The notes: generated by a model from the sequence alone, not told the origin. A DNA stretch of 39,847 nt from an uncultured Puniceicoccaceae bacterium (GCA_964650745.1 CAZYUX010000002.1:1-39847), one strand, 5' to 3'. Positions 6,589 to 33,414 are shown, counted from the stretch's first letter. A program made the numbers and translations.

Positions 6589-8046
6589 ATGGCGCTCCGC
6601 CTTTACAACACTTTAAGCCGCGGGATACAACCGCTTCAGCCGGCGGCCGGGAAACCCCTCGGGATGTATTGCTGCGGGCCGACGGTTTACGGGCCGGCGC
6701 ATATCGGCAACTTCCGAACGTTCCTGCTCCAGGACGTCCTGCGGCGGGTCCTCGAGGTCTCCGGCGTGAAGGTCAAGCACGTGCGCAACATCACGGACGT
6801 GGACGACAAGACCATCCGCCAGTCCCAGGCCGGGGGTCTGCCGCTGAAGGAATTCACGCGGAAGTGGGAGAAAAAGTTCCGCGAAGACTGCGCGGCGTTG
6901 AACATGCTCGAGCCGCACATCGAGCCGCGCGCCACGGAACACATCGAAGAACAGACCGGGCTGGTGAAAAAACTCCTCGAAAACGGCAGGGCCTACCAGG
7001 GGCCGGACGGCTCGGTTTATTATAAAGTCAGCGCTTTCGAAAATTACGGAAAGCTCTCCAACCTCGACCGCGCGGCGTTGCGAACCCAAGCCGTGACCAG
7101 CGGCGAAGCCGCCAACCTCGCCGACGAATACGGCCGCGAGTCAGTGGCGGACTTCGCCCTGTGGAAAGCCCGCAAGCCGGAAGACGGTGATAATTACTGG
7201 CCCAGCCCCTGGGGCGAGGGCCGGCCCGGCTGGCACATCGAATGCTCCGCCATGAGCCAAAAATACCTCGGCGAGAATTTCGACCTGCACGGGGGGGGAG
7301 TGGACCTGTCTTTCCCCCATCACGAAAACGAAATCGCCCAAAGCGAAGGAGCCACCGGCCAGCCCTTCTGCCGCCACTGGTTCCACTGCGCCCACCTCAT
7401 GGTCGAAGGGCAAAAAATGAGCAAGAGCCTGGGCAACCTCTACACGCTCGGCGACATCCGCGCCCGCGGTTTCTCCCCGATGGCCCTGCGCTACGCCCTC
7501 CTCTCCGGCCACTACCGCCAGCCCCTCAACTTCACATGGAACGGCATGAAGGCCGCGCAAAGCGCCTTGCGAAAGCTGGAGAAAGCGGCCTGCATATTAT
7601 TAAAAAGAGCAGGGCTGGCTCCTGATGATTTTCACACTTATTGGCGGCAAGGCGGTTCTATTGACTGGAAACCCGCATGGGGCGCTTATTCCTTTCACTT
7701 GGCGGGAGAAGAGTTAGAGGATGATTTAAACATACCGGCCGGCTTGGGATTGCTTTTTGAACAATTCAACAATGAAGATCCGGCTGTTTGCCCAACAGAC
7801 AAAGAACTTGAAAGGGAGTTAATGTATTTTAGCGCCGTAATATATGCTTTGGGGCTGAAGCTCTTCACCCATGAGAAGAAACCGATGGAAGCTCCGAAGG
7901 AAGTAAAGACGCTGGCCAAGGAGCGTCAGGCGGCGCGGCAAGCCAGGGACTGGGCCGGGGCCGACGCCCTGCGCGATGAGATCAAAGCCAAAGGCTGGAA
8001 AATCATGGACCGCAAAGACGGCGCATTTGACCTGGAACCGCTGTAA
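6589..8046 (+). CDS. cysS: cysteine--tRNA ligase
   Basis: The start [10 protein letters not shown] (ATG 6589) is in frame with track ORF 6160..8046. It has the HIGN motif ([10 protein letters not shown]), KMSKS, and [17 protein letters not shown]. Confidence 0.95.
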
Positions 8047-10340: not shown

Positions 10341-10724
10341 TCAGACGGCTTCGGCTTTGGGAATCTCAGCGGGAATTTCGACCTCGTGGGTGTTTTTGCG
10401 CTTCACTTTGCGCAGGCGCGAGCGGCGCCGCAGCATGCGGTCGAGTTTCTCCACCATATCATCCACGGATTTGTAGAGGTCGCCGGTTTCGGCCGTAGCG
10501 ACGAGGGGGGGACCGTTGATTTCGATATGGCCTTTGGCGATATATTCTTTCTGTTTGGTGATGTTGGAGTTGTATTCCAAGTCCACTTTAATTCGGAGGA
10601 TGTGACTTTCGTGGTGGAAGAGTTTTTCCACTTTTTCGGTTACGAGTGTTTTCAGGGCATCGGTGAGGTCGAGGTGGATGCCGGTGATGGTCACATCATG
10701 GTTGTTCCGATTTTCAGCAGTCAT
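10341..10724 (-). CDS. hpf: ribosome hibernation promoting factor (S30AE/RaiA family)
   Basis: Internal start MTAENRNNHDVTITGIHLDLTDALKTLVTEKVEKL (cat at 10722-10724), preceded by GAAAGGA as a ribosome-binding site. 127 aa. The rest of track ORF 10341..11075 is a spurious extension. Confidence 0.85.
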   Translation of the reverse strand: MTAENRNNHDVTITGIHLDLTDALKTLVTEKVEKLFHHESHILRIKVDLEYNSNITKQKEYIAKGHIEINGPPLVATAETGDLYKSVDDMVEKLDRMLRRRSRLRKVKRKNTHEVEIPAEIPKAEAV

Positions 10725-10794
10725 GGTTTTATCCTTTCTTTCTGGGTTGTCACCAAGTAGCATTGCGGCGCTTTCACATGAAAAAGAGCCAGCG

Positions 10795-11637
10795 ATGGAT
10801 TTCTTGAAAAAGAGTTTGGGCCGCTTTTCCGCGGTCATCGTCACGGGCGGTTCTTCCGGTATTGGACTGGAGTTTCTCAAAGTGCTGTCCACTATACTTC
10901 CAAAGGCTCTGTTTTGCAACCTTTCGCGGACGAAACCCGGGGATTGTGTTCCGGGCGGGCGTTTGCGGCACTTGCCGTGTGATTTATCGGACGGGGCTGA
11001 ATTGGCGGCCCGAGGGGAGCGGTTGCTCGATATGCTGGCCCGCGAGGGCGGCGCCGGGGAGATTTTGCTCATCAATAACAGCGGTTTCGGGTCTTACGGG
11101 CCTTTTCCGGCGCCCCGGCTGGAGCATCATTTGGAAATGGCCGATGTTAATATAAAGGCGCCGGTGCGCTTGACGGGTATGCTGATGCCCCTGTTGCTGG
11201 AGCGGGGCGGGACGGTGGTGAATGTGGCTTCGACGGCGGCCTTTCAGCCCACTCCTTATCTGGCCACCTATGGGGGCACGAAGGCGTTTTTGCTGCATTG
11301 GAGCCTTGCATTGGGGCAAGACTTGAAACGTTCTCGCGTCCGCGCTCTGGCGGTTTGTCCGGGGCCGACTTCGACCCGGTTTTTTGAGAGGGCGGGTTTC
11401 GCCGAGCGTCCCTGCACTGGCGGTTTGAGTCAGATGCCCGGGGAGGTTGTTTTCGAATCCTTGCGGGCGCTGGCCAAAGCTAAAAGCATGGTCATTTGCG
11501 GCCGGCGCAACCGTTTCCTGGCCGGTTTCAGTTCACTGTTTCCAAAGCCCGCGCAGGCGGTTCTCGCCGGGTGGATTTTGCGGAAAATGCGTCTGGAAAG
11601 ATTTCAGAAAGCTCCGGGCCGGTCATTCCATGAATGA
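10795..11637 (+). CDS. SDR family oxidoreductase
   Basis: Start MDFLKKSLGRFSAVIVTGGSSGIG (TGxxxGIG) and catalytic YGGTKAF (YxxxK). ATG 10795 is in frame with track ORF 10663..11637. Confidence 0.8.
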   Translation: MDFLKKSLGRFSAVIVTGGSSGIGLEFLKVLSTILPKALFCNLSRTKPGDCVPGGRLRHLPCDLSDGAELAARGERLLDMLAREGGAGEILLINNSGFGSYGPFPAPRLEHHLEMADVNIKAPVRLTGMLMPLLLERGGTVVNVASTAAFQPTPYLATYGGTKAFLLHWSLALGQDLKRSRVRALAVCPGPTSTRFFERAGFAERPCTGGLSQMPGEVVFESLRALAKAKSMVICGRRNRFLAGFSSLFPKPAQAVLAGWILRKMRLERFQKAPGRSFHE

Positions 11638-20198: not shown

Positions 20199-20447
20199 CT
20201 ACTCCTCTCCAAACATCCAGCCTGCAGTCACTTTCAAGGCTTTGGCCAAAACGGCTATCTCGTAGTCCATGACGTAGCGTTCCTGGTTCTCGATGCGGGA
20301 GATGGCGCTGCGGTCTATACTCACACCAAGGGCAGCCAGTCTTCCCGCTAAGTCCTGCTGTGAAACGGGCGGTTTTTGTGCCAGCCGGGCTTTCCGGACG
20401 CGTCCGCCGATGATGTTTTTCGAATATCCCGTCTTGGTCTTTTTCAT
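20199..20447 (-). CDS. XRE-family helix-turn-helix transcriptional regulator
   Basis: IGGRVRKARLAQKPPVSQQDLAGRLAALGVSIDRSAISRIENQERYVMDYEIAVLAKAL is a canonical Cro/C1 HTH. Confidence 0.85.
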   Translation of the reverse strand: MKKTKTGYSKNIIGGRVRKARLAQKPPVSQQDLAGRLAALGVSIDRSAISRIENQERYVMDYEIAVLAKALKVTAGWMFGEE

Positions 20448-20449
20448 CC

Positions 20450-20468
20450 GCGTGTGATTTACACACGC
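20450..20468. promoter_or_regulatory. palindromic operator-like site 1 (GCGTGTG-N5-CACACGC)
   Basis: Perfect 7-bp inverted repeat with a 5-nt spacer, ending 2 nt from the XRE start codon. Confidence 0.4.
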
Positions 20469-20496
20469 TTGACTTTAACAGCTCCCGCAGCTTCGA

Positions 20497-20515
20497 ATGT
20501 GTGACGTGCACACAT
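20497..20515. promoter_or_regulatory. palindromic operator-like site 2 (ATGTGTG-N5-CACACAT)
   Basis: Perfect 7-bp inverted repeat with a 5-nt spacer, sharing the core GTGTG-N5-CACAC with site 1. The two centres are 47 bp apart, in the divergent XRE/HAF intergenic region. Confidence 0.4.
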
Positions 20516-20574
20516 AACCATATGAACCGCGCACTCAAAACCTAAATAATATAACAAGAAAATGTAATATCACA

Positions 20575-21726
20575 ATGAAAACGATATATCTGATTAAATA
20601 TGCGTTATACGCGGCGGGCGCTTTTATAGCTTCCGCTTCCGGCCTGCACGGCCAGGCCAGCTTTACCGGCCTGGGCGATCTGCCCGGAGGTCTTTATTAC
20701 AGCGTCGCCAACGATATTTCCGCTGACGGCTCAACCGTCGTCGGCTGGAGCGAAACAGCCGACGGTGATGAAGCCTTCGTCTGGACAGAAGCAACAGGCA
20801 TTGTTGGGCTGGGAGACTTGCCCGGAGGCTCTATTTACAGCCGCGCGACCGCCGTGTCCTTTGACGGCTCCGTGATTGTAGGCAGAAGCGCCGCAACAAA
20901 CGGCACTGAAGCATTCAGATGGACTACATCGGGAGGTATGACCGGGCTGGGTGACTTGCCTGGAGCAACCTTCAGCAGCAGTTCATTCGGCGTATCGGCG
21001 GACGGATTGGTCGTTGTGGGCCAAAGCGAAAGCTTCAACGGCTATGAAGCTTGGCGATGGACTCAGGCTACCGGGATGGTTGGTTTGGGTGATTTGACGG
21101 GCGACGGATTCGAAAGCCACGCCTTGGATATTAATAGTGATGGCTCCGTGATCGTCGGTTATGGTTTTAGCGCCAATGGAAGAGAAGCTTTCCGCTGGAC
21201 TCAGGCTTTGGGGATGGTTGGCCTGGGAGATCTTCCAGGTGGAACTTTCAGCAGCAGTGCCTGGGAAGTTACACCTGACGGTACAATTATAGTTGGCACC
21301 GGAAATAGTGATAGCGGACAGGAGGCTATCCGCTGGACACAGGCTGGCGGCATGGTTGGTTTGGGTGATTTACCGGGAGGTTTGTATCAAAGCTCAGCTT
21401 TTGACGTGTCCGCTGACGGAACTTTCGTCGTGGGGAAAAGTAACACGGATAATGGCAATGAAGCCTTCCTCTGGGATGCCGTGAATGGAATGAGACTGCT
21501 TCAGGATGTGCTGGTCAACGATTATGGTCTGGATCTGACGGGCTGGACTTTAGGCAACGCCTTTGGCATTTCCGATGACGGAACGGTTATCACGGGTTGG
21601 GGCTTTAATCCAAGCGGGGATACGGAAGCCTGGCGGGCGGTGATCCCGGAGCCGGGCGGTTGCGCCGTTCTATTCGGTCTTTCCGTGCTGGTTTTGGCTT
21701 TGTCGAGGCGTAAAAAAAGCCATTAA
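20575..21726 (+). CDS. HAF-family extracellular repeat protein with PEP-CTERM sorting signal
   Basis: Signal peptide MKTIYLIKYALYAAGAFIASASG, then six 46-aa repeats of the form GLGDLPGGxxxSxAxxVSADGSxVVGxSxxxxGxEAFRWTxxxGMV, one degenerate seventh unit, and the C-terminus VIPEPGGCAVLFGLSVLVLALSRRKKSH. Confidence 0.8.
   Translation: MKTIYLIKYALYAAGAFIASASGLHGQASFTGLGDLPGGLYYSVANDISADGSTVVGWSETADGDEAFVWTEATGIVGLGDLPGGSIYSRATAVSFDGSVIVGRSAATNGTEAFRWTTSGGMTGLGDLPGATFSSSSFGVSADGLVVVGQSESFNGYEAWRWTQATGMVGLGDLTGDGFESHALDINSDGSVIVGYGFSANGREAFRWTQALGMVGLGDLPGGTFSSSAWEVTPDGTIIVGTGNSDSGQEAIRWTQAGGMVGLGDLPGGLYQSSAFDVSADGTFVVGKSNTDNGNEAFLWDAVNGMRLLQDVLVNDYGLDLTGWTLGNAFGISDDGTVITGWGFNPSGDTEAWRAVIPEPGGCAVLFGLSVLVLALSRRKKSH
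20668..21495 (+). repeat. six tandem 138-nt (46-codon) coding repeats
   Basis: Repeat units start at GGCCTGGGCGATCTGCCCGGAGGT (20668) and GGGCTGGGAGACTTGCCCGGAGGC (20806), then every 138 nt. They are diverged at the DNA level and conserved at the protein level. Confidence 0.9.
21643..21723 (+). other. PEP-CTERM sorting signal
   Basis: IPEP motif, a hydrophobic span (GGCAVLFGLSVLVLAL) and a basic tail (SRRKKSH). Confidence 0.75.
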
Positions 21727-21917
21727 TTTCGAACTCACTTTTTATTTTGACGTTTTGGCCGGTGAGCGCGCCGCTCCCGGCGGCCCGGCGGGGCTTTATC
21801 GCGTTGGATTTCCCTTTATTTGCAGCCGCCGGCGTCATGCGGAGATAAAAACCGGAAAATGCTTTAATCAATTTCGGAATCCAGGTTTAACTTCGATATT
21901 TTACTTAAACGGACGAA

Positions 21918-22337
21918 TTAAACGGGCGGAATCTCATCTTTCTTGAAAAAGCGTTGGATTTCCACCTCGGCGCTTTCCGGGCTGTCGGAGGCGTGGATGA
22001 AGTTCATCATCGAATCCGTCCCCCAGTCCCCGCGGATGGTGCCAGCCGGAGCCTGGTTCGAGTCGGTGGGGCCGGCGAGATGGCGCGCCCTGCGAATGAC
22101 GTTCCCGCCCTCGAGAATCAAGATGAGGACGGGGCGCGACATCATGAATTCCATGAGTTTCGGATAGACCGGCAACTCCTGGATGTGGGCGTAATGGATG
22201 TCGAGGACGGCCCGGTCCAGCGCCGCCATTTTGCATGCGGCGATATTGAAGCCCGCTTCCTCGAAGCGGGTCAGCACGGCTCCGGCTTTGCGTTTGTTGA
22301 AGCAGTCCGGTTTGAGGATGACGAGCGTTCTTTCCAT
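21918..22337 (-). CDS. ndk: nucleoside-diphosphate kinase
   Basis: MERTLVILKPD, GPTDSNQAPAGTIRGDWG, and the active-site His in NFIHASDS. Confidence 0.95.
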   Translation of the reverse strand: MERTLVILKPDCFNKRKAGAVLTRFEEAGFNIAACKMAALDRAVLDIHYAHIQELPVYPKLMEFMMSRPVLILILEGGNVIRRARHLAGPTDSNQAPAGTIRGDWGTDSMMNFIHASDSPESAEVEIQRFFKKDEIPPV

Positions 22338-27698: not shown

Positions 27699-28469
27699 AT
27701 GATGAAAGCGGCGCTTGTCACTGGAGGGACACGGGGCATCGGGCAGGGCATCGCCCGGTGTCTGGCCCGCGAAGGTTTCGATCTCGCCCTCAACGGGATC
27801 CGGGAAGAGGCCGCCGCGGCGGACGCGCTTGAGGAATTGCGTCATCTTGGAGGAAGGGTGATTTATTGCCGGGGCGATGTTTCCCGGGCGGCGGACTGCC
27901 GGGCTGTTGTTGAAAAAGTCCGCGGGTGTTACGGGCGGCTCCACGTTCTGGTCAACAACGCCGGTGTGGCGCCGCGCGAGCGTGTGGATGTTCTGGACAC
28001 AACGGAGGAGAGTTTTGGCCGGGTCATCGCGGTCAACCTCAAAGGCGCGTTTTTCCTCTCCCAGATGGCGGCGCGGTGGATGCTCGAACAGAAGGAGGCG
28101 GATCCGGGCTTCAGCGGGTGCATCATCAATATCGGCTCGGTCTCCGCCGTCACGGCATCCGTCAACCGCGCCGAATACTGCGTCGCCAAAGCCGGGTTGG
28201 GGATGGTCACGAAGCTTTTTGCCGCCCGCCTTGGCGCGTCCGGCATCCCGGTCTATGAAATCCGCCCCGGCATCATCAAGACCGATATGACCGCGGGCGC
28301 CGCCGGGAAATACGATCAGCTCATAGCCGGCGGCCTTTGTGTCCAGCCCCGCTGGGGAATGCCCGAGGACGTGGGCAGGGCCGCGGCCGCCCTCGCCCGC
28401 GGCGATTTCCCTTACTCCACCGGCCAGGTCATCCGCGTGGATGGCGGCCTCACGCTTCAGCGGCTTTGA
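27699..28469 (+). CDS. SDR family oxidoreductase (FabG-like 3-oxoacyl reductase type)
   Basis: ALVTGGTRGIGQGIA, NNAG, and catalytic S...YCVAKAG (YxxxK). Confidence 0.85.
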   Translation: MMKAALVTGGTRGIGQGIARCLAREGFDLALNGIREEAAAADALEELRHLGGRVIYCRGDVSRAADCRAVVEKVRGCYGRLHVLVNNAGVAPRERVDVLDTTEESFGRVIAVNLKGAFFLSQMAARWMLEQKEADPGFSGCIINIGSVSAVTASVNRAEYCVAKAGLGMVTKLFAARLGASGIPVYEIRPGIIKTDMTAGAAGKYDQLIAGGLCVQPRWGMPEDVGRAAAALARGDFPYSTGQVIRVDGGLTLQRL

Positions 28470-28554
28470 AGAGTTGTCTTTTCAGCCGCGGCTGAAAATG
28501 CGGGAAAACGGTCCGGCGGCGGCACGGCTTCCGGGATGCCGGTGTTTTTCAATG

Positions 28555-29757
28555 CTAATCTTCCGGGGGTTCGCCATGGGGCGCCATTTTAACGAGCCGA
28601 GGGTGGAAACAGCCGAGGATTTCAACCAAATCTTCCTGGGCGCGCATCACCTCGTCAATATCTTTGTAAACCATGGGGACTTCATCCAGCCCGGCGCTCA
28701 TGAGGGTGACGCGCCGCCGGCGCAGAAGCCCGCGGACATCGCTCCAGCGGAAGGTTTTCATGGCTTTCTTGCGGCTCATGACGCGCCCGGCGCCGTGGGA
28801 AGCGGACTTCAGAGAATCGGGGTTTCCTTTGCCCTTGATGACGTAAGCGGGGGAAGCCATGGAGCCGGGGATGATGCCCAAGGCCCCCGCGTCCGCCGGT
28901 GTGGCGCCTTTGCGGTGGACCACGACTTCGCGGTTCCGGTGACGCTCGACCCACGCGAAATTGTGGTGGTTTTCGATATCGAGAAGCACTTGCGCCCCGA
29001 GATGGCGCGCGATATGCTGATGGATAAGGAAGTGGTTGGCGGCCGCGTAGGCGCCCATGAGCCGCATCGCCTCCCAATACTCCCGTCCGGACGCGCTCTT
29101 CATATCGAGCCAGGCCAAATGAGCAAACTCCTTGGGCAGGCCCTTGTGTTTTTGACGGGCCGCTTTGCTGTAGTGATTGCAGACCAGCGCCCCGGTGCCG
29201 CGGCTGCCGCTGTGGCTGAGCAACGCCAGATAAGCCCCCGGATCGAGTCCCAGTTCTTTTTTTTCAACGGTGAACTCGCCGAACTCGGCGAAATGGTTGC
29301 CGCTGCCGCTGGTGCCGAGCTGGGACCATGCCTTGTCCTTGTGCCGCCGGGTGACGGGCGACACCGACCAGTCGCGGTCCATGACGCCATGTTGCCGGCG
29401 CTTTTTGAAACTTGCCCCGATGCCGAACCGGGTTTCGGTCTCGATGGCCTTGCGCAGCCGGTCTTCCTCCTTGTCCAACGTGGTCACTGGCAAATCGAGG
29501 ACGGTCATCTTCATCCGGCAGGCAATGTCCACCCCCACGGCGTAAGGGATAACCACCCCGTCCGTGGCCAAGACGCCGCCGATGGGCAGCCCGTAACCCT
29601 GGTGGGCGTCAGCCATCAAAGCCCCCGCGACCGAGACCGGCAGCCGGACGGCGTTGCGCATCTGCCCGAGCGCCCCCGCCTCGTGCCCTTCGCCCCATTC
29701 CCGCCAGGGCGCCGGCTCTTCCCGGACGGTGTTGTTCGCTGCTTTTGAATCATTCAT
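28555..29757 (-). CDS. rtcB: RNA 3'-phosphate ligase RtcB
   Basis: MADAHQGYGLPIGGV, GVDIACRM, GTSGSGNHFAEF, SHSGSRGTG, HHNFAW, HRKGATPA and SHGAGRVMSR are the canonical RtcB metal- and GMP-binding motifs. Confidence 0.95.
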   Translation of the reverse strand: MNDSKAANNTVREEPAPWREWGEGHEAGALGQMRNAVRLPVSVAGALMADAHQGYGLPIGGVLATDGVVIPYAVGVDIACRMKMTVLDLPVTTLDKEEDRLRKAIETETRFGIGASFKKRRQHGVMDRDWSVSPVTRRHKDKAWSQLGTSGSGNHFAEFGEFTVEKKELGLDPGAYLALLSHSGSRGTGALVCNHYSKAARQKHKGLPKEFAHLAWLDMKSASGREYWEAMRLMGAYAAANHFLIHQHIARHLGAQVLLDIENHHNFAWVERHRNREVVVHRKGATPADAGALGIIPGSMASPAYVIKGKGNPDSLKSASHGAGRVMSRKKAMKTFRWSDVRGLLRRRRVTLMSAGLDEVPMVYKDIDEVMRAQEDLVEILGCFHPRLVKMAPHGEPPED

Positions 29758-29823
29758 TAGGAAAAGAAGAATATACCCCAGTTACTTTTCTTCATGAACA
29801 TTGGAGGATAAGTCCAAGTGATT

Positions 29824-30204
29824 TTATTCCGGAAGTGCCAAAGCGGAGGAAGCGGCCAATTGCTGGGCCATTAATTTCCGTCCGGATTTTTCCGGGGGCC
29901 AGCCAATTATATTTGCATGACGAGCCGGAGGCTCATCCGGAGTCACCTCCAGTTGTTTTTTTCTTACTTCTGACGCTATGATATCGCCCCGGCCGTGAAG
30001 CGTTTGGCTTCTTGTCCTTTCAATTTTCCGGCCGACAATCCAGATATCGCATTCCGCCAACTCCTCTATGCGAAAAACGGAGGTTTTCCCTTCCTGATTC
30101 GGCAAAAACGCTTCCGCTTTCACCCGGTTGTTTTCGCGGCTTAAATGCCGGGAGGAATAAATAAACCTGGTAATCGGCTCCCGATCCTGAACCGGACTCG
30201 CCAT
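29824..30204 (-). CDS. hypothetical protein (126 aa), third gene of the low-GC cassette
   Basis: An ORF in low-GC DNA. Its ATG follows the upstream stop as TGA-TAG-ATG. Conserved-looking segments are VKAEAFLPNQEGKTSVFRIEEL and PPARHANIIGWPPEKSGRKLMAQQLA. I recognised no family. Confidence 0.6.
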   Translation of the reverse strand: MASPVQDREPITRFIYSSRHLSRENNRVKAEAFLPNQEGKTSVFRIEELAECDIWIVGRKIERTRSQTLHGRGDIIASEVRKKQLEVTPDEPPARHANIIGWPPEKSGRKLMAQQLAASSALALPE

Positions 30205-30207
30205 CTA

Positions 30208-30705
30208 TCAATACCGCTGTTCCAGCCGGTTAAGGTTATCGAAAATAACCTTCGGGATTTGATCTTTGAATATCTCAACACCGTGAGTTTTGTTTGGGCC
30301 GAAGATACCGGCATAACTCAATTCCCCATTGGTTCCCACACTAATAGAAAACACCCGGTCCGTTGCTTTAAACCATTCGAATGAAATTTCTCCATCCGGG
30401 TCGGCGGACACTTCGGGCATTTGCAAGCCGGGTTGAAATAATTCGAGGAAGTTAACCGCTTTGGATACACTCTCTTCAAGCACCGCTGTTGCGCCATACC
30501 CGTCCCAGCCTTCGTGTTGACACTCATGCAGGATTTCTTCTAATGATTTCAAAACCGTCTCTTTTGCTGGACCAGTTGAAAGGGGTTGATTTAGCTCTTC
30601 TTCGTAACGCGAAGCATCGTTTTTTAGAATCTCTGCCTCCTTGCCTACTTCTTGACTCGAATAAAAAAGCCAGGAAGGTAACGTTGATGAGCACGTATAG
30701 GTCAT
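30208..30705 (-). CDS. hypothetical protein (165 aa), second gene of the low-GC cassette
   Basis: ATGA start/stop overlap with the upstream gene (30702-30705). It contains GWDGYGATAVLEESVSKAVNFLELF...PEVSADPDGEISFEWF. I recognised no family. Confidence 0.65.
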   Translation of the reverse strand: MTYTCSSTLPSWLFYSSQEVGKEAEILKNDASRYEEELNQPLSTGPAKETVLKSLEEILHECQHEGWDGYGATAVLEESVSKAVNFLELFQPGLQMPEVSADPDGEISFEWFKATDRVFSISVGTNGELSYAGIFGPNKTHGVEIFKDQIPKVIFDNLNRLEQRY

Positions 30706-31445
30706 ACGTATAATTGAATAGTTTTGTCTGTTAGACTTCTAAAGAAGATATCATTCTTCATTTTCCTCAATTTGTCAAACCTTTCAAGAATATCATCAGC
30801 GGGTAAACCGTCTGGGGATGCCTCAAAGACATCAATGTCAAAAATAACCGGCAACTTGTCTTCTCTCCACGGCTCAATTTTCTGGATGATAATGGCTTGA
30901 AGGTTTTGTTTCTCATCCCGCAGAACCATGCGGGAAAAATATTCAGGCATCAGCTCCGGCAGACCATCCGGAACATCTGGTGGTTTGCTAAAGTATTCGG
31001 AAAACGCAACATGAGGTCCGGGCAAATGAAGTTTGTTAACATAACGGGTAGCTATCCGTGTGATTTCTTGCTGTGGAACTGTTTCCAAGTAGATGTTCCA
31101 CAATCTTGATGCTTCCTCAAACACATCTTTCCAGGAAGTATATGGCTTCAGCCGGTTAAAAGTGAATCCATCACGGCGGAATTGGGCGATTTTCTTTTTG
31201 TCGTCTGATCGGAAAAAATATCCTTGAATATCTTCTTTAAAGGCAACTGATTTTGCCGCTTGGCCGGGTCTAAATGAAAAAGCATAATCCGATTGTTTGC
31301 GTTCCTCGATTTTCGGGTAATCGCGCTGCAGAGATCCGTGTAATTTCTTAAAAACTGACACATCGAAATCCCCGGGCAATTGAACCCGGAAATCAATAAT
31401 GGCTTCAGTGATGGGAGCTTTTTTTAAATGCCGTTGGTCTGCCAT
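30702..31445 (-). CDS. TIGR04255-like uncharacterised protein (247 aa), first gene of the low-GC cassette
   Basis: The N-terminus LKKAPITEAIIDFRVQLP, the central ITRIATRYVNKLHLP, and VIFDIDVF with a C-terminal DIFFRSLTDKTIQLY match my recollection of the TIGR04255 signature (P(L/I)xEAxxExRF ... RxGxRYxN ... DxD). The assignment is from memory and not searched. Confidence 0.6.
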   Translation of the reverse strand: MADQRHLKKAPITEAIIDFRVQLPGDFDVSVFKKLHGSLQRDYPKIEERKQSDYAFSFRPGQAAKSVAFKEDIQGYFFRSDDKKKIAQFRRDGFTFNRLKPYTSWKDVFEEASRLWNIYLETVPQQEITRIATRYVNKLHLPGPHVAFSEYFSKPPDVPDGLPELMPEYFSRMVLRDEKQNLQAIIIQKIEPWREDKLPVIFDIDVFEASPDGLPADDILERFDKLRKMKNDIFFRSLTDKTIQLYV

Positions 31446-31711
31446 ATTCTTTCCGAGATTCGAATGGTCGGGAAAGTTCTTCTAAAACTCAAGGGAAAAG
31501 AATTTATGGTTCTTCGCGGATTATTGCGGGCGGAGATCGCGTTTGCCGCAATGAAAGAGGATGGCGGCGCGATAGCGTCCTATGCCCGCCGGGGCGTTTC
31601 CAGCCCCGGCAGCTTCGCGTAATGCTCGTTGATGTTTTCCATCCTTCATCAGAAGACTTTTCCCTCGCCGCCGCCAGCCCTTTCCGCAAACTTCCGCGAA
31701 TAACCAAACTC

Positions 31712-32221
31712 ATGATTTCTGAAGAAAAGGATCCGCCGGCCGCCGCCGGGCACCTTCTGATTGACGGTTTCAACATCATCCACGCCTGGCCGGAGCTGCG
31801 GGATATGCTCGGCAGAAGCCCGGCGGCGGCCCGCGCGCGCCTTGGGGAAATCGTCCGCGTCATTCACGATTTCACGGGAATCCGCGCCACGGTGGTTTTT
31901 GACGGCCGGGGCGAGGAAATCGAAATCGAACGGCCCGGCGAAGAGCCAACTTTTTCTTTTCTCTACACCCCCGCTTCGGCCGCGGCGGACAGCGTCATCG
32001 AGCAGCTGACGGCGAAAGCGCAACACCCCGGCGCGGTCATCGTCGCCAGCGCGGACAACCCGCTGCGCCAGACCGTGCTGGCAATGGGGGCGCAGGTTAT
32101 ATCCCCGCCGGATTTGGCGGCCTGGGCGCGAACATGCCGCCAGCGCCAAAGCGCGCGCCTGAAGCATTTAAGCAAACAGGTTGACAGGCAGTGGCGGCGG
32201 CGGGAAAATCCGCCCCCGTGA
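31712..32221 (+). CDS. NYN-domain RNase, YacP/Rae1-like
   Basis: HLLIDGFNIIHAWPELRDML, VVFDGRG and VASADNPLRQTVLAMGAQVISPPDL fit the YacP-type NYN/PIN fold. Start MISEEKD is at 31712, inside track ORF 31622..32221. Confidence 0.75.
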   Translation: MISEEKDPPAAAGHLLIDGFNIIHAWPELRDMLGRSPAAARARLGEIVRVIHDFTGIRATVVFDGRGEEIEIERPGEEPTFSFLYTPASAAADSVIEQLTAKAQHPGAVIVASADNPLRQTVLAMGAQVISPPDLAAWARTCRQRQSARLKHLSKQVDRQWRRRENPPP

Positions 32222-33414
32222 AAAGACCCGCGGCCGCGGAACTCCAGGGACTATACGGGCCGGTGACGGTTTCCGAGACGCTGCTGCAAAAGATCTGGCA
32301 GCGCCAGGATTTCTCGCGGGAGGAATTGACGACGCAAAACGGGGAAAGCTTGCGGGTGCTTTCCCCCGGCCGGTGGAACCGCCTGGAAGGGCCGGACTTT
32401 CTTGGCGCGGAGATGGAAATCGCCGGCCGCCGCCTGCGGGGCGACGTCGAAATCCATTTCCGCCAGCGTGACTGGCGGGATCACGGCCATCACCGCAATC
32501 CGCTTTACGGCAACGTGATCCTGCACACACTCCTCTTCGAACCGGCAGTCAAAACCTCCGCCGCCCGGCGGGCGGACGGGCATGCGCCCGCCACCTTCGT
32601 GCTGCTCCCCTGGCTGCGGCAGGACCTGGAGGAATACCTCATGGAGGAAACGCTCTTTGCCCTGGGCCGGCAACAGGAAGCCGAATGCCTGCGGCCGCTG
32701 TGCGGGAAGCCCCTGGAAGAATGCCGGCAGATTTTCCGCCGCAACGCCCAATGCCGCTGGGAGCAAAAAAGACGACATGCCAAAACCCGTCTGGAAAAAT
32801 TCGGATGGGAGGAGGCCTGCCACCAGTGCTTTCTCGAAGTCCTCGGAAGCCGCCGCAACCGCGCTCCGATGAGCCGTCTGGCGGCCGGTTTTCCCTTGCG
32901 GCGGATGCGCGGCGGCGCGCGGGACGCCCGTTATTATTTCGAACAGGAGCAAGGCCGGTGGCGGCTGCGCGGGGTTCGCCCCGCCAGCCATCCTCTGCGC
33001 CGTCTGGGCCAGTACCTCGAACTGCTTGAACACCGCCCCGCATGGCCGCAAGCGCTGGCGGACTGGCAAAAAATCCTTCCGCACGGCCAGCCGGAAAAGG
33101 AAAACACGGCGGCATTCCGGCGCCGCGCCGCCCTGAAGTCATGCCGGAATCAGTTAGCCAATGAAGTCCTGGCCGGCTGTTTTCCCGGCGCCCGGCTGGA
33201 CACCCTGGCGGCGGATGCCCTTCTGCCTTTGCTGGCGGCCGGCCATGACACGGATCTGTTCGCCTGCTGGTTCCACTGGTACGGGGGCGATTTTCCCGCC
33301 GCCCTTGGCCGGTTCCTGGCCGGGGCGGGCATCCGCAAGCCGCCCCGCCACCCCGCCTGCAACGGCTCCAACCAGGGGGCGCTCCATTTTTTCTTTCAGC
33401 AAGGACTCACTTGA
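32191..33414 (+). CDS. DUF2851 family protein
   Basis: SETLLQKIWQRQDFSREELTTQNGESLRVLSPGRWNRLEGPDFLGAEMEIAGRRLRGDVEIHFRQRDWRDHGHHRNPLYGNVILHTL fits the DUF2851 N-terminal signature. An alternative start is the GTG at 32218, which forms a GTGA overlap with the NYN gene stop. Confidence 0.7.
   Translation: MAAAGKSAPVKRPAAAELQGLYGPVTVSETLLQKIWQRQDFSREELTTQNGESLRVLSPGRWNRLEGPDFLGAEMEIAGRRLRGDVEIHFRQRDWRDHGHHRNPLYGNVILHTLLFEPAVKTSAARRADGHAPATFVLLPWLRQDLEEYLMEETLFALGRQQEAECLRPLCGKPLEECRQIFRRNAQCRWEQKRRHAKTRLEKFGWEEACHQCFLEVLGSRRNRAPMSRLAAGFPLRRMRGGARDARYYFEQEQGRWRLRGVRPASHPLRRLGQYLELLEHRPAWPQALADWQKILPHGQPEKENTAAFRRRAALKSCRNQLANEVLAGCFPGARLDTLAADALLPLLAAGHDTDLFACWFHWYGGDFPAALGRFLAGAGIRKPPRHPACNGSNQGALHFFFQQGLT

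What the first reader, a model, noticed from the sequence alone, without database searches (positions are those of the whole stretch)
29758..31500. Low-GC cassette of three translationally coupled genes (TIGR04255-like plus two unknowns) between rtcB and a NYN RNase gene
**Composition, seen in the sequence.** There is a sharp compositional break. Hand counts of five 60-nt lines inside 29.9-31.2 kb give 30-48% G+C, against 70% for a line in the adjacent rtcB.

**Gene arrangement, seen in the sequence.** The low-GC block holds exactly three minus-strand ORFs packed head to tail.
- 30702..31445 is 247 aa.
- 30208..30705 is 165 aa. Its start forms an ATGA start/stop overlap with the gene upstream.
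- 29824..30204 is 126 aa. The junction reads TGA-TAG-ATG, a double stop followed immediately by the start.
- The cassette ends 66 nt upstream of rtcB on the same strand, and it is divergent from a YacP/Rae1-like NYN RNase gene.

**Families.** The first protein looks like the uncharacterised TIGR04255 family. I cannot place the other two in any family. The 165-aa protein has a WDGYGA...PDGEISFEWF pattern, and the 126-aa protein has SVFR...RHANIIGWP.

**Inference.** This looks like a horizontally acquired three-component module of unknown function. Its size, tight coupling, foreign composition and position beside RNA-repair and RNA-cleavage genes resemble anti-phage or toxin-antitoxin-like cassettes. 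rtcB here has no rtcA, rtcR or archease partner in the window, so a functional link (RNA damage by the cassette, repair by RtcB) is conceivable but unproven.
Basis: partly seen in the sequence, partly recalled or inferred. Interest (0 to 1): 0.75.

Follow-up and report, generated by a model that had tools for sequence, protein, structure and literature searches.

The report
Mobile three-gene TIGR04255 toxin-antitoxin-like cassette
This is a real, horizontally acquired three-gene cassette from a large, unstudied family that moves between many bacterial phyla, plasmids and prophages and looks like a toxin-antitoxin or anti-phage module; its position next to the RNA ligase gene rtcB appears to be accidental.

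Summary
**Observation: confirmed.**
- Three minus-strand genes lie head to tail: A 30702-31445, B 30208-30705 and C 29824-30204.
- They sit in a sharp low-GC block. Their GC3 is 0.41-0.53, against 0.71-0.78 in the neighbouring genes.
- A is a full-length TIGR04255 protein. B and C match no Pfam or NCBIfam family.

**The triplet is a conserved, self-contained unit.**
- Of 90 loci that encode an A relative, 76 have B and 72 have C directly downstream. They come from at least 15 phyla.
- A and B overlap by 4 nt in 65 of 67 non-redundant loci.
- The cassette is poorer in GC than its flanks in 59 of 59 loci.
- The flanking genes are unrelated from locus to locus.
- Copies occur on IMG/VR viral contigs and in one unverified phage record. 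More distant TIGR04255 cassettes occur on plasmids.

**TIGR04255 also heads other cassettes.** In these the two downstream genes are swapped as a pair:
- an unknown protein plus DUF7689, which carries Cys/His motifs;
- an unknown protein plus a zeta-toxin/AAA_33 kinase.

**The individual proteins.**
- C folds confidently (pLDDT 97) and has an invariant Arg-Ser-His trio. Its only structural resemblance is weak, to the NAD-dependent enzyme Tpt1/KptA.
- The core of B matches PADLOC's untested candidate PDC-M32A in 42 of 61 family members.

**Best reading.** This is a tripartite toxin-antitoxin or abortive-infection module: C is the effector, B its cognate partner and A a shared third component.

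**The proposed RtcB link is not supported.** None of the 89 related loci has rtcB nearby.

The parts
30702..31445 (-). Gene A: a 247-aa TIGR04255-family protein, the conserved first gene of the cassette.
   Evidence: The ORF is. NCBIfam TIGR04255 gives 1.1e-39, 136.7 bits against a cut-off of 30, over nearly the full model. More than 720 homologue clusters were found. Invariant residues include E14, D18, Q88, R134, N137, D203, K230 and N231.
30208..30705 (-). Gene B: a 165-aa protein, proposed as the cognate neutraliser or adaptor. It has a variable N-terminus and a conserved WDGYGA...DPDGEISFEW core.
   Evidence: The ORF is and the alignments. The AF2 model has pLDDT 83: a disordered N-terminus, three helices, a five-strand beta meander and a final helix. 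Neither PDB nor Pfam gives a match. PADLOC PDC-M32A is hit by 42 of 61 family members, best E 1.8e-6; the window protein scores E 0.0064 over residues 64-128.
29824..30204 (-). Gene C: a 126-aa protein, the proposed effector or toxin. It is a compact alpha/beta domain with invariant R13, S42 and H96.
   Evidence: The ORF is. The AF2 model has pLDDT 97.1 and pTM 0.89. R13, S42 and H96 are invariant in 44 sequences that include distant subtypes. The best structural hits are Tpt1/KptA, but they are weak: E 0.21, prob 0.82, TM 0.48. The family has 3478 clusters at 50% identity.
30702..30705 (-). ATGA overlap between A's stop and B's start, implying translational coupling.
   Evidence: Read. The same 4-nt overlap occurs in 65 of 67 non-redundant related loci.
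30202..30210 (-). B/C junction, reading TGA-TAG-ATG.
   Evidence: Read. In related loci where the C ORF starts after B's stop, the gap is 0-22 nt.
29725..31500 (.). Low-GC block of about 1.78 kb, taken to be the inserted segment. It runs from about codon 11 of rtcB to about 55 nt upstream of A.
   Evidence: The 100-nt GC profile and GC3 values are. rtcB relatives mostly align only from about residue 12 onward. The exact rtcB-side edge is my own count on the sequence.
31446..31621 (.). Intergenic region of 176 nt between A and the divergent NYN gene. The cassette promoter is presumed to lie here, but none was identified.
   Evidence: The consensus scan found no sigma-70-like site in this interval. 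The assignment is an inference from gene layout only.
29758..29823 (-). Spacer of 66 nt between C and rtcB.
   Evidence: No minus-strand terminator-like site was found here, so read-through into rtcB is possible. This was not tested.

Best explanation
**What it is.** The block is a horizontally acquired, self-contained three-gene conflict module, that is, a tripartite toxin-antitoxin or abortive-infection-type cassette. It belongs to a large, uncharacterised family whose hallmark is a TIGR04255 protein encoded first and translationally coupled to a two-gene payload.

**Proposed roles (inferred, not shown).**
- C is the effector or toxin. It is a small enzyme-like alpha/beta domain with an invariant Arg-Ser-His trio, possibly acting on a nucleotide or NAD.
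- B is its cognate binding partner, acting as neutraliser or adaptor. B changes whenever the third gene changes.
- A is the common third component, shared by cassettes with different payloads. It may be a sensor, a stabiliser or a regulator that decides when the effector is released.

**Relation to rtcB.** The cassette landed just upstream of rtcB by chance and is not functionally tied to it.

**Shown.** Gene structure, foreign composition, conserved triplet, sporadic spread, payload swapping and the family assignments.

**Inferred.** Which protein is the toxin, the role of A, and any defence phenotype.
For: 1. **The triplet is conserved as a unit.** Of 90 loci with A, 76 have B and 72 have C immediately downstream. 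The 4-nt A/B overlap occurs in 65 of 67 loci, and pairwise identity matrices correlate (A-B 0.73, A-C 0.50, B-C 0.54). Four look-ups that started from B or C homologues also found the ~250 aa and ~165-180 aa genes upstream. In two further look-ups one gene was not called, but there is room for it.
2. **It is mobile.** The hosts are MAGs from at least 15 phyla. The cassette is poorer in GC than its flanks in 59 of 59 loci, by 7.6 points on average and 15 points here. The immediate neighbours are heterogeneous: 148 Pfam families among 114 flanking proteins, with integrase and ResIII each seen three times. Copies lie on six IMG/VR viral contigs, in an unverified Ralstonia P2-like phage record, and beside a terminase gene. 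More distant TIGR04255 cassettes lie on three plasmids.
3. **The payload is swapped.** The same first gene heads cassettes whose second and third genes are replaced together. One pair is B' plus DUF7689, with conserved YNC[IF]AW, PTHAARQ and DIEH motifs. Another, on a Vibrio plasmid, is a 179-aa unknown plus a Zeta_toxin/AAA_33 kinase. A third, on a Crinalium plasmid, is two other unknowns. A bona fide TA toxin family in the third position argues that the third gene is the toxic effector and the second its partner.
4. **There is a link to a defence candidate.** 42 of 61 B members hit PADLOC PDC-M32A. 7 and 3 of the 77 A/C-type proteins hit two PDC-M32B models. PDC-M32 is a two-gene candidate found embedded in BREX, DISARM or type I RM systems (bioRxiv 10.1101/2024.01.29.577857). 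By my reading of the ORFs, DUF7689-type cassettes sit next to restriction-modification-like genes in L088 and L089.
5. **C looks like an enzyme.** The model has pLDDT 97. R13, S42 and H96 are invariant across 44 sequences and lie on strands 1, 2 and 5 of the model.
Against: - There is no experimental evidence of toxicity, neutralisation or phage defence for any member.
- A, and the window's own C, hit no PADLOC model. The window's B hits PDC-M32A only weakly and partially: 13.6 bits over 65 of 375 positions.
- Most cassettes sit among housekeeping genes rather than in defence islands.
- B and C have no significant structural match to any known toxin or antitoxin.
- At 247 aa and with many invariant polar residues, A could itself be an enzyme or the effector.
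- Standalone B-core proteins occur in phage contigs without A or C, so the B domain is not exclusive to this system.
Confidence: 0.55

Rival explanations
1. **C is a minimal ADP-ribosyltransferase-fold, NAD-dependent enzyme related to Tpt1/KptA.** The cassette would then ADP-ribosylate or otherwise modify RNA, DNA or a protein target. This refines the best explanation by giving C a specific chemistry; it is not exclusive of it. In its strong form it revives the RNA-damage / RtcB-repair idea.
For: - The only coherent group among the Foldseek PDB hits is Tpt1/KptA from three archaea: 9ldi (E 0.21, prob 0.82, TMq 0.48), then 9ld4, 8tfi and 8tg3.
- The three invariant polar residues R13, S42 and H96 sit on strands 1, 2 and 5 of the model. 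From my own knowledge of the ART superfamily, those are the strands that carry the ART signature residues.
- One weak hit for B is TriTu, the immunity protein of the ART toxin TreTu (7zhm_C, prob 0.33).
Against: - No Foldseek hit reaches E <= 0.001, and TM-scores are 0.40-0.48 with rmsd 4.4-5.9 A.
- A profile-profile comparison of the C family with a Tpt1 alignment gives probability 0.1%.
- Neither the Tpt1 H-H signature nor the catalytic Glu of R-S-E ARTs is present.
- Pfam finds no ART, RES or DarT domain in 40 members.
- rtcB is absent from all other loci.
Confidence: 0.25
2. **The cassette is functionally coupled to rtcB.** Cassette proteins would damage or process RNA and RtcB would reseal it, so the four genes would form one RNA-repair or stress operon.
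For: - The four genes are on the same strand.
- The gap is 66 nt and no terminator-like site was detected between C and rtcB.
- The low-GC block runs into the first ~11 codons of rtcB, so rtcB may now be transcribed from the cassette.
- C bears a weak resemblance to the RNA enzyme Tpt1.
Against: - None of the 89 related loci has rtcB, NYN or DUF2851 within the flanks held, up to 6 kb a side.
- None of 80 loci with rtcB relatives (up to 72% identity) has A, B, C or the NYN gene nearby.
- The cassette's codon usage is foreign to rtcB: GC3 0.41-0.53 against 0.78.
Confidence: 0.04
3. **The cassette is not a conflict system.** It would be a small mobile accessory operon with a physiological role, such as a stress-response enzyme complex or a regulator, in which A is the enzyme and B and C are accessory subunits.
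For: - A has many invariant charged and polar residues, as an enzyme would.
- Most insertions are solitary and lie among housekeeping genes.
- A and C score nothing in PADLOC for the window proteins.
- No toxin or antitoxin fold was recognised.
Against: - The second and third genes are swapped as pairs behind the same A, and one swap brings in a zeta toxin. That is typical of conflict systems and hard to reconcile with a fixed enzyme complex.
- The cassette is consistently poorer in GC than its host.
- It occurs on viral contigs and related cassettes occur on plasmids.
- B is similar to a candidate found embedded in defence systems.
Confidence: 0.15

Closest known systems
TIGR04255 family (NCBIfam 'sporadTIGR04255'; uncharacterised)
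   Same: Protein A is a full-length member, scoring 136.7 bits against a cut-off of 30. Sources name its homologues 'TIGR04255 family protein'.
   Different: The family name carries no function. No paper in the searchable library mentions it. Its regular pairing with two downstream genes, and the swapping of those genes, is not described in the papers I could search.
PADLOC phage defence candidate PDC-M32 (two genes, M32A and M32B; predicted by 'guilt-by-embedding', untested; bioRxiv 10.1101/2024.01.29.577857)
   Same: The conserved core of B (WDGYGA...DPDGE..FEW) matches positions 269-333 of the 375-position M32A model in 42 of 61 members, best E 1.8e-6. 7 and 3 of the 77 A/C-type proteins match two M32B models, best E 3.7e-5. 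Both are small mobile cassettes.
   Different: - PDC-M32 has two genes, with a 375-position first-gene model. Here there are three genes.
- The match covers only about 65 positions.
- The window's A and C do not hit any PDC-M32 model, and B hits only at E 0.0064.
- The tool does not say which members hit M32B.
- PDC-M32 has no demonstrated function.
Omega-epsilon-zeta and other tripartite type II toxin-antitoxin systems (first gene accessory, second antitoxin, third toxin)
   Same: - It is a three-gene, tightly coupled, mobile cassette.
- In a sister cassette on a Vibrio plasmid the third gene is a Zeta_toxin/AAA_33 kinase placed behind TIGR04255 and an unknown second gene. That is the same gene order as omega-epsilon-zeta. 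The order in omega-epsilon-zeta is from my own knowledge.
   Different: - The window's C is not a zeta toxin and B is not an epsilon antitoxin; neither has a Pfam hit.
- A is 247 aa with no detectable DNA-binding domain, unlike the small ribbon-helix-helix omega repressor (the latter from my own knowledge).
- No toxicity has been shown.
Toxin-antitoxin-chaperone (TAC) systems, in which a conserved SecB-like third component serves different TA pairs (PMC5105189, PMC6377645)
   Same: The logic is the same: one conserved accessory protein is associated with several unrelated toxin/partner pairs.
   Different: A has no SecB or other Pfam domain. It is encoded first. No chaperone-addiction element has been identified. 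The analogy is functional only.
Tpt1/KptA RNA 2'-phosphotransferase (ADP-ribosyltransferase fold)
   Same: It gives the best, though weak, structural resemblance to C. C also has three invariant polar residues on strands 1, 2 and 5.
   Different: - C has 126 aa against about 180 aa and lacks the N-terminal RNA-binding lobe.
- hhalign gives probability 0.1%.
- The conserved trio is R-S-H, not the Tpt1 histidines.

Membership tests
TIGR04255 (NCBIfam) | Whole-protein HMM score above the curated cut-off of 30 bits. | tested here: met
   Protein A scores 136.7 bits, E 1.1e-39.
TIGR04255 (NCBIfam) | Full-length match to the ~252-position model. | tested here: met
   Residues 7-244 align to model positions 2-249 of 252.
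PADLOC PDC-M32 (candidate defence system) | A protein that matches the M32A model over its length. | tested here: not met
   The window's B matches only positions 269-333 of 375, at 13.6 bits and E 0.0064. Across the family, 42 of 61 members hit this region, best E 1.8e-6. This is shared-domain homology, not membership.
PADLOC PDC-M32 (candidate defence system) | A partner protein that matches the M32B model. | tested here: inconclusive
   The window's A and C give no PADLOC hit at E <= 1. 7 and 3 of the 77 related A/C-type proteins hit M32B models, but the tool does not say which ones.
PADLOC PDC-M32 (candidate defence system) | Two-gene cassette architecture (FAM_01821>>FAM_00608). | tested here: not met
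   The window and 72 related loci have three genes. PDC-M32 is listed as a two-family cassette.
Zeta-toxin type II TA (omega-epsilon-zeta / PezAT) | A toxin with the Zeta_toxin P-loop kinase domain (PF06414). | tested here: not met
   C has no such Pfam hit, and neither do 40 family members. Only the sister cassette on plasmid CP063527 has one, at 3.1e-12.
Tpt1/KptA, ADP-ribosyltransferase fold | Significant structural similarity to solved Tpt1/KptA structures. | tested here: inconclusive
   The best hit has E 0.21, prob 0.82 and TMq 0.48. No hit reaches E <= 0.001.
Tpt1/KptA, ADP-ribosyltransferase fold | Sequence-profile similarity, including the conserved YHGT and VHLS histidine motifs. | tested here: not met
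   hhalign of the C family against a 4-sequence Tpt1 alignment gives probability 0.1%. The invariant residues of C are R13, S42 and H96.
Tpt1/KptA, ADP-ribosyltransferase fold | NAD+-dependent transfer activity. | not testable with these tools
   This needs a biochemical assay.
Toxin-antitoxin systems in general | One product is toxic and a co-encoded product neutralises it. | not testable with these tools
   This needs expression and rescue assays. Only the architecture, the mobility and a zeta-toxin sister cassette are shown.
Anti-phage defence systems in general | Enrichment next to known defence genes, or embedding within them. | tested here: inconclusive
   Among 114 immediate neighbours only a few are defence-like: ResIII 3, type IIG RM 2, mad8 3 and integrase 3. 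No background rate was computed. Some loci sit next to a PLD/DUF87 operon or, by my reading of ORFs, next to RM-like genes.
TAC (SecB-like chaperone TA systems) | A SecB-like chaperone component. | tested here: not met
   None of the three proteins has a Pfam hit to SecB or any other family.

The most novel reading that the evidence does not exclude
TIGR04255 proteins are a previously unrecognised 'universal third component', a sensor or stabiliser that plugs into many unrelated effector/partner pairs. Pairs seen here include the C family, the DUF7689 Cys/His hydrolase-like proteins and zeta-toxin kinases. Together they would define a new and very widespread class of modular tripartite toxin-antitoxin or abortive-infection systems. 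Within it, C would be a new minimal enzyme class with an Arg-Ser-His active site, possibly a stripped-down ADP-ribosyltransferase-like fold. The phage-encoded standalone B-core proteins would be counter-defence decoys.
Probability: 0.25. Interest if true: 0.8.

Novelty: new variant of a known kind. Interest (0 to 1): 0.6.

Why it matters
**Scale.** If the reading is right, this window carries one member of a very large, unstudied family of modular three-gene conflict systems. The C family alone has 3478 clusters at 50% identity. More than 535 A-encoding stretches were found among one-genome-per-species contigs. The hosts span at least 15 phyla.

**What it would explain.**
- It would give a function to TIGR04255, a family known only by its number.
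- It would add two new protein families, B and C, and would place DUF7689 in a context.
- It would offer a testable case of one conserved component serving interchangeable toxin/partner pairs.

**For the annotation of this genome.** The block should be treated as an inserted mobile module. rtcB should not be read as part of an RNA-damage/repair pair with it.

Tried and rejected
1. **RtcB/NYN functional link: rejected.** Searching the flanks of 89 related loci for rtcB, NYN and DUF2851 found nothing. Scanning 80 metagenomic loci with rtcB relatives for the cassette or the NYN gene also found nothing.
2. **Empty-site test: not possible.** The closest rtcB relatives are only about 70% identical and not syntenic. 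The exact-protein look-up for A returned no record.
3. **Known-family searches for B and C: nothing.** This covers Pfam, NCBIfam and PHROGs on the window proteins. It also covers Pfam on 40 C and 61 B family members, and sequence profiles against PDB.
4. **Fold searches: no hit at E <= 0.001.** C was searched against PDB and BFVD, and B against PDB.
5. **Tpt1 homology for C by profile-profile comparison: rejected at sequence level,** with probability 0.1%.
6. **Internal duplication in A: not supported.** hhalign of the N-terminal half against the C-terminal half gives probability 1.2%.
7. **Insertion scars and integration sites: nothing convincing.**
   - No flanking direct or inverted repeats stand out.
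   - There are no tRNA genes or Rfam families in the window.
   - There is no consensus promoter upstream of A, and no terminator between C and rtcB.
8. **Literature: nothing on function.**
   - No paper mentions TIGR04255, IPR026349, PF24738 or DUF7689.
   - PDC-M32 appears only as a PADLOC hit in one prophage survey.
   - It is also listed as a candidate in the supplement of the preprint that defined the candidates.
9. **Finding a full PDC-M32 locus, to decide which protein matches M32B: failed.** The proteobacterial-type B and C have no plasmid hits, and only the Ralstonia record among phages.
10. **One literature search on tripartite TA/chaperone systems** gave background only.
Full report
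**1.

The window has three minus-strand ORFs at the stated coordinates:
- A, 30702..31445, 247 aa;
- B, 30208..30705, 165 aa;
- C, 29824..30204, 126 aa.

The junctions can be read directly. A's TGA stop overlaps B's ATG as ATGA. B's TGA stop is followed by TAG and then by C's ATG. C ends 66 nt before rtcB (28555..29757; Pfam RtcB 8.7e-85). A is divergent from a NYN_YacP gene (31622..32221; 2.9e-25), which in turn overlaps a DUF2851 gene.

The compositional break is strong.
- The 400-nt windows covering 30001-31600 are 0.425-0.472 G+C, on a background of about 0.60.
- The cassette is 0.454 overall. Same-length windows average 0.597 (sd 0.034), and the lowest such window clear of the cassette is 0.527.
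- GC3 is 0.41, 0.45 and 0.53 for A, B and C, against 0.71-0.78 for five neighbouring genes.
- In 100-nt windows the low-GC stretch runs from 29701 to 31500. I place its rtcB-side edge at about 29725.
- It therefore includes roughly the first 11 codons of rtcB. rtcB relatives mostly align only from about residue 12. Together these suggest that the insertion supplied a new 5' end for rtcB. This is an inference.

**2. Family assignments**

- A is a full-length TIGR04255 protein (NCBIfam 136.7 bits, cut-off 30). It has no Pfam domain.
- B and C match nothing in Pfam, NCBIfam or PHROGs. Scanning 61 B and 40 C relatives one by one against Pfam also gave nothing.
- Sequence profiles of A, B and C find no solved structure.
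- No paper in the searchable library mentions TIGR04255, its InterPro number or DUF7689.

**3. The triplet is a conserved, self-contained, mobile unit**

*Co-occurrence.* The word-indexed homologue search found more than 720 clusters for A but only 16 for B and 20 for C. That gap is a sensitivity effect.
- Contigs carrying homologues show the same 247 + 165 + 125-135 aa arrangement. In three further look-ups one of the genes was not called.
The best 80 are all MAGs.
- Those MAGs include Verrucomicrobiota, Chloroflexota, Cloacimonadota, Desulfobacterota, Acidobacteriota, Planctomycetota and Gemmatimonadota. They also include Nitrospirota, Gammaproteobacteria, Dadabacteria, Methylomirabilota, Spirochaetota, Paceibacterota and others.
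- In the 90 loci held at that point, iterated HMM searches find A in all, B directly downstream in 76 and C after B in 72. Most of the exceptions are truncated contigs or the alternative cassettes described in section 4.
- A full-database profile search shows the C family has 3478 clusters at 50% identity with E <= 0.001. All of the top 150 are single-domain proteins of 114-174 aa.

*Coupling and co-inheritance.* The 4-nt A/B overlap is present in 65 of 67 non-redundant loci. Pairwise identities of the three proteins are correlated (0.73, 0.50, 0.54), so they travel together.

*Mobility.*
- The cassette is poorer in GC than its flanks in 59 of 59 loci. The mean difference is 7.6 points; in the window it is 15 points.
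- Immediate neighbours share nothing: 148 Pfam families among 114 flanking proteins. The most frequent are ResIII, HATPase_c and phage integrase, at three each.
- None of the 89 related loci has rtcB, NYN or DUF2851 nearby.

*Mobile-element contexts.*
- One copy lies beside a phage terminase gene.
- Six IMG/VR viral contigs carry A and B. C was detected in three of them, and a divergent C-like ORF follows B in the other three.
- A record deposited as an unverified Ralstonia P2-like phage carries a divergent copy.
  - Its B is recognised by the B profile at 8e-9.
  - Its third gene aligns weakly with C (hhalign E 0.0016, probability 16%), but it keeps the invariant residues.
- Two loci, L004 and L170, share the downstream genes but differ upstream. 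One of them carries a PLD/DUF87 operon, which suggests a variable hotspot.

**4. TIGR04255 heads other cassettes with swapped payloads**

- In about ten loci A is followed, again with overlapping or abutting ORFs, by a different ~145-aa protein (B') and then by a DUF7689 protein (Pfam 1e-36 to 1e-45). The DUF7689 proteins have conserved YNC[IF]AW, PTHAARQ and DIEH motifs, which look like a Cys/His hydrolase signature.
- By my reading of the ORFs, these cassettes sit next to restriction-modification-like genes in L088 and L089.
- On Vibrio plasmid CP063527, TIGR04255 is followed by a 179-aa unknown and then by a protein annotated as zeta toxin. Pfam confirms it: Zeta_toxin 3.1e-12 and AAA_33 1.7e-12.
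- A Crinalium plasmid and a Thermus megaplasmid carry further variants.
- The B and C profiles do not recognise any of these alternative partners. So the second and third genes change together while A stays.
- This is the main argument that genes 2 and 3 form a cognate effector/partner pair and that A is a shared third component. A bona fide toxin family in position 3 is the main argument that position 3 holds the toxic effector.

**5. What the proteins look like**

*C.*
- It folds with very high confidence (pLDDT 97.1, pTM 0.89) into a compact alpha/beta domain with six strands.
- R13, S42 and H96 are invariant in 44 sequences that include the distant proteobacterial and phage-type subtypes. 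They lie on strands 1, 2 and 5.
- No PDB or BFVD hit reaches E 0.001.
- The only coherent group among the weak PDB hits is the NAD-dependent RNA 2'-phosphotransferase Tpt1/KptA. The best hit has E 0.21, prob 0.82 and TM 0.48.
- A profile-profile comparison with a Tpt1 alignment, built from E. coli KptA and three PDB sequences, gives probability 0.1%.
- The ADP-ribosyltransferase-like reading is therefore a lead, not a finding.

*B.*
- It has a disordered N-terminus, three helices, a five-strand meander and a C-terminal helix (pLDDT 83). It has no significant structural neighbour.
- Its conserved core (WDGYGA...DPDGE..FEW) matches positions 269-333 of PADLOC model PDC-M32A in 42 of 61 members, best E 1.8e-6.
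- 7 and 3 of the 77 A/C-type proteins hit two PDC-M32B models. The tool does not say which proteins those were.
- PDC-M32 is a two-gene, untested candidate. It was predicted because it occurs embedded in BREX, DISARM or type I RM systems (bioRxiv 10.1101/2024.01.29.577857). It has been reported once as a PADLOC hit in a Sinorhizobium prophage (PMC12429752).
- The B core also occurs as small standalone proteins in viral contigs, with no A or C nearby.

It has many invariant polar residues and no detectable internal repeat.

**6. Interpretation**

The best-supported reading is a horizontally acquired tripartite conflict module of the toxin-antitoxin or abortive-infection kind. In it C is the effector, B is its cognate partner and A is a common sensor, stabiliser or regulator.

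*Shown:*
- the gene structure;
- the foreign composition;
- the conserved triplet;
- the broad sporadic distribution;
- the payload swapping;
- the similarity of the B core to PDC-M32A.

*Inferred:* which protein is toxic, what A does, and any defence phenotype.

*Evidence against.*
- Most copies are solitary and lie among housekeeping genes.
- The window's A and C hit no PADLOC model.
- No recognised toxin or antitoxin fold appears.

At most, rtcB may now be co-transcribed with the cassette, because no terminator-like site separates them.

**7. Novelty**

- No component other than the name 'TIGR04255' is described in the papers I could search.
- The nearest catalogued object is an untested PADLOC candidate that shares one domain.
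- I rate the cassette a new variant of a known kind (tripartite TA or defence cassettes). It is of moderate to good interest for three reasons: the size of the family, the interchangeable payloads, and the confident new fold of C with its invariant Arg-Ser-His trio.

**8. Limits**

- All homologues are from metagenomes or unstudied strains.
- There is no close relative for an empty-site comparison.
- There is no model for A.
- No background was computed for the defence association.
- The E-values for the PADLOC matches are modest.

Noticed in passing
window 29725-29757 (first ~11 codons of rtcB) and spacer 29758-29823: The low-GC block runs into the 5' end of rtcB. The 100-nt window 29701-29800 is 0.48 G+C, against 0.74 for the window before it. 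rtcB relatives mostly align only from about residue 12. The insertion may therefore have given rtcB a new start codon and upstream region, and no terminator-like site separates C from rtcB.
   Followed up: partly
L058, L060, L067, L069, L070, L077, L082, L088, L089, L053 (for example L077 5980-7596): There is an alternative three-gene cassette: TIGR04255, then a ~145-aa helical-looking protein (conserved HPAYQQIIGMG...HWFWAL...ITGEDPV), then DUF7689 with conserved YNCIAW / PTHAARQ / DIEH motifs. These look like a Cys/His hydrolase signature. By my reading of the ORFs, it sits next to restriction-modification-like genes in L088 and L089.
   Followed up: partly
L173 (Vibrio parahaemolyticus plasmid CP063527.1) 158-2105: TIGR04255 is followed by a 179-aa unknown protein and then a zeta-toxin/AAA_33 kinase. 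This is a third type of payload behind the same first gene.
   Followed up: partly
L185 3965-4342; L187 3968-4279; L190 4103-4483; L192-L198: Small standalone proteins carrying the B core (WDG[YH]GA...PDG..FEW) occur in IMG/VR viral contigs among small phage genes, with no A or C nearby. They could be phage-encoded mimics of B, or simply members of a broader phage domain family.
   Followed up: partly
L004 vs L170 (shared DAGK_cat / GreA / CPSase side, different upstream side): Two related genomes carry the A-B-C cassette at the same place but with different cargo upstream. L170 has a PLDc_2 and DUF87 operon there. This suggests a variable, island-like hotspot.
   Followed up: no
window 31622-32221 and 32191-33414: The NYN_YacP gene and the DUF2851 gene overlap by 31 nt on the plus strand and look like a pair. 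Neither has an NCBIfam hit.
   Followed up: no
window 28339-29748 (+): A 469-aa ORF lies antisense to rtcB. It is most likely a spurious long ORF of the kind common in GC-rich DNA.
   Followed up: no
window 7601-8000, 10401-10800, 20401-20800, 21201-22000: There are other, milder GC dips (0.50-0.525) elsewhere in the window. They might mark further foreign or unusual segments.
   Followed up: no
L175 2317-3442 (Ralstonia record ON170239.1): By eye, ORFs just downstream of the divergent A-B-C copy look like PAAR and DUF4123 type VI secretion accessory genes. The record is marked UNVERIFIED_ORG, so it may include host DNA, and its 'phage' context should be treated with caution.
   Followed up: no
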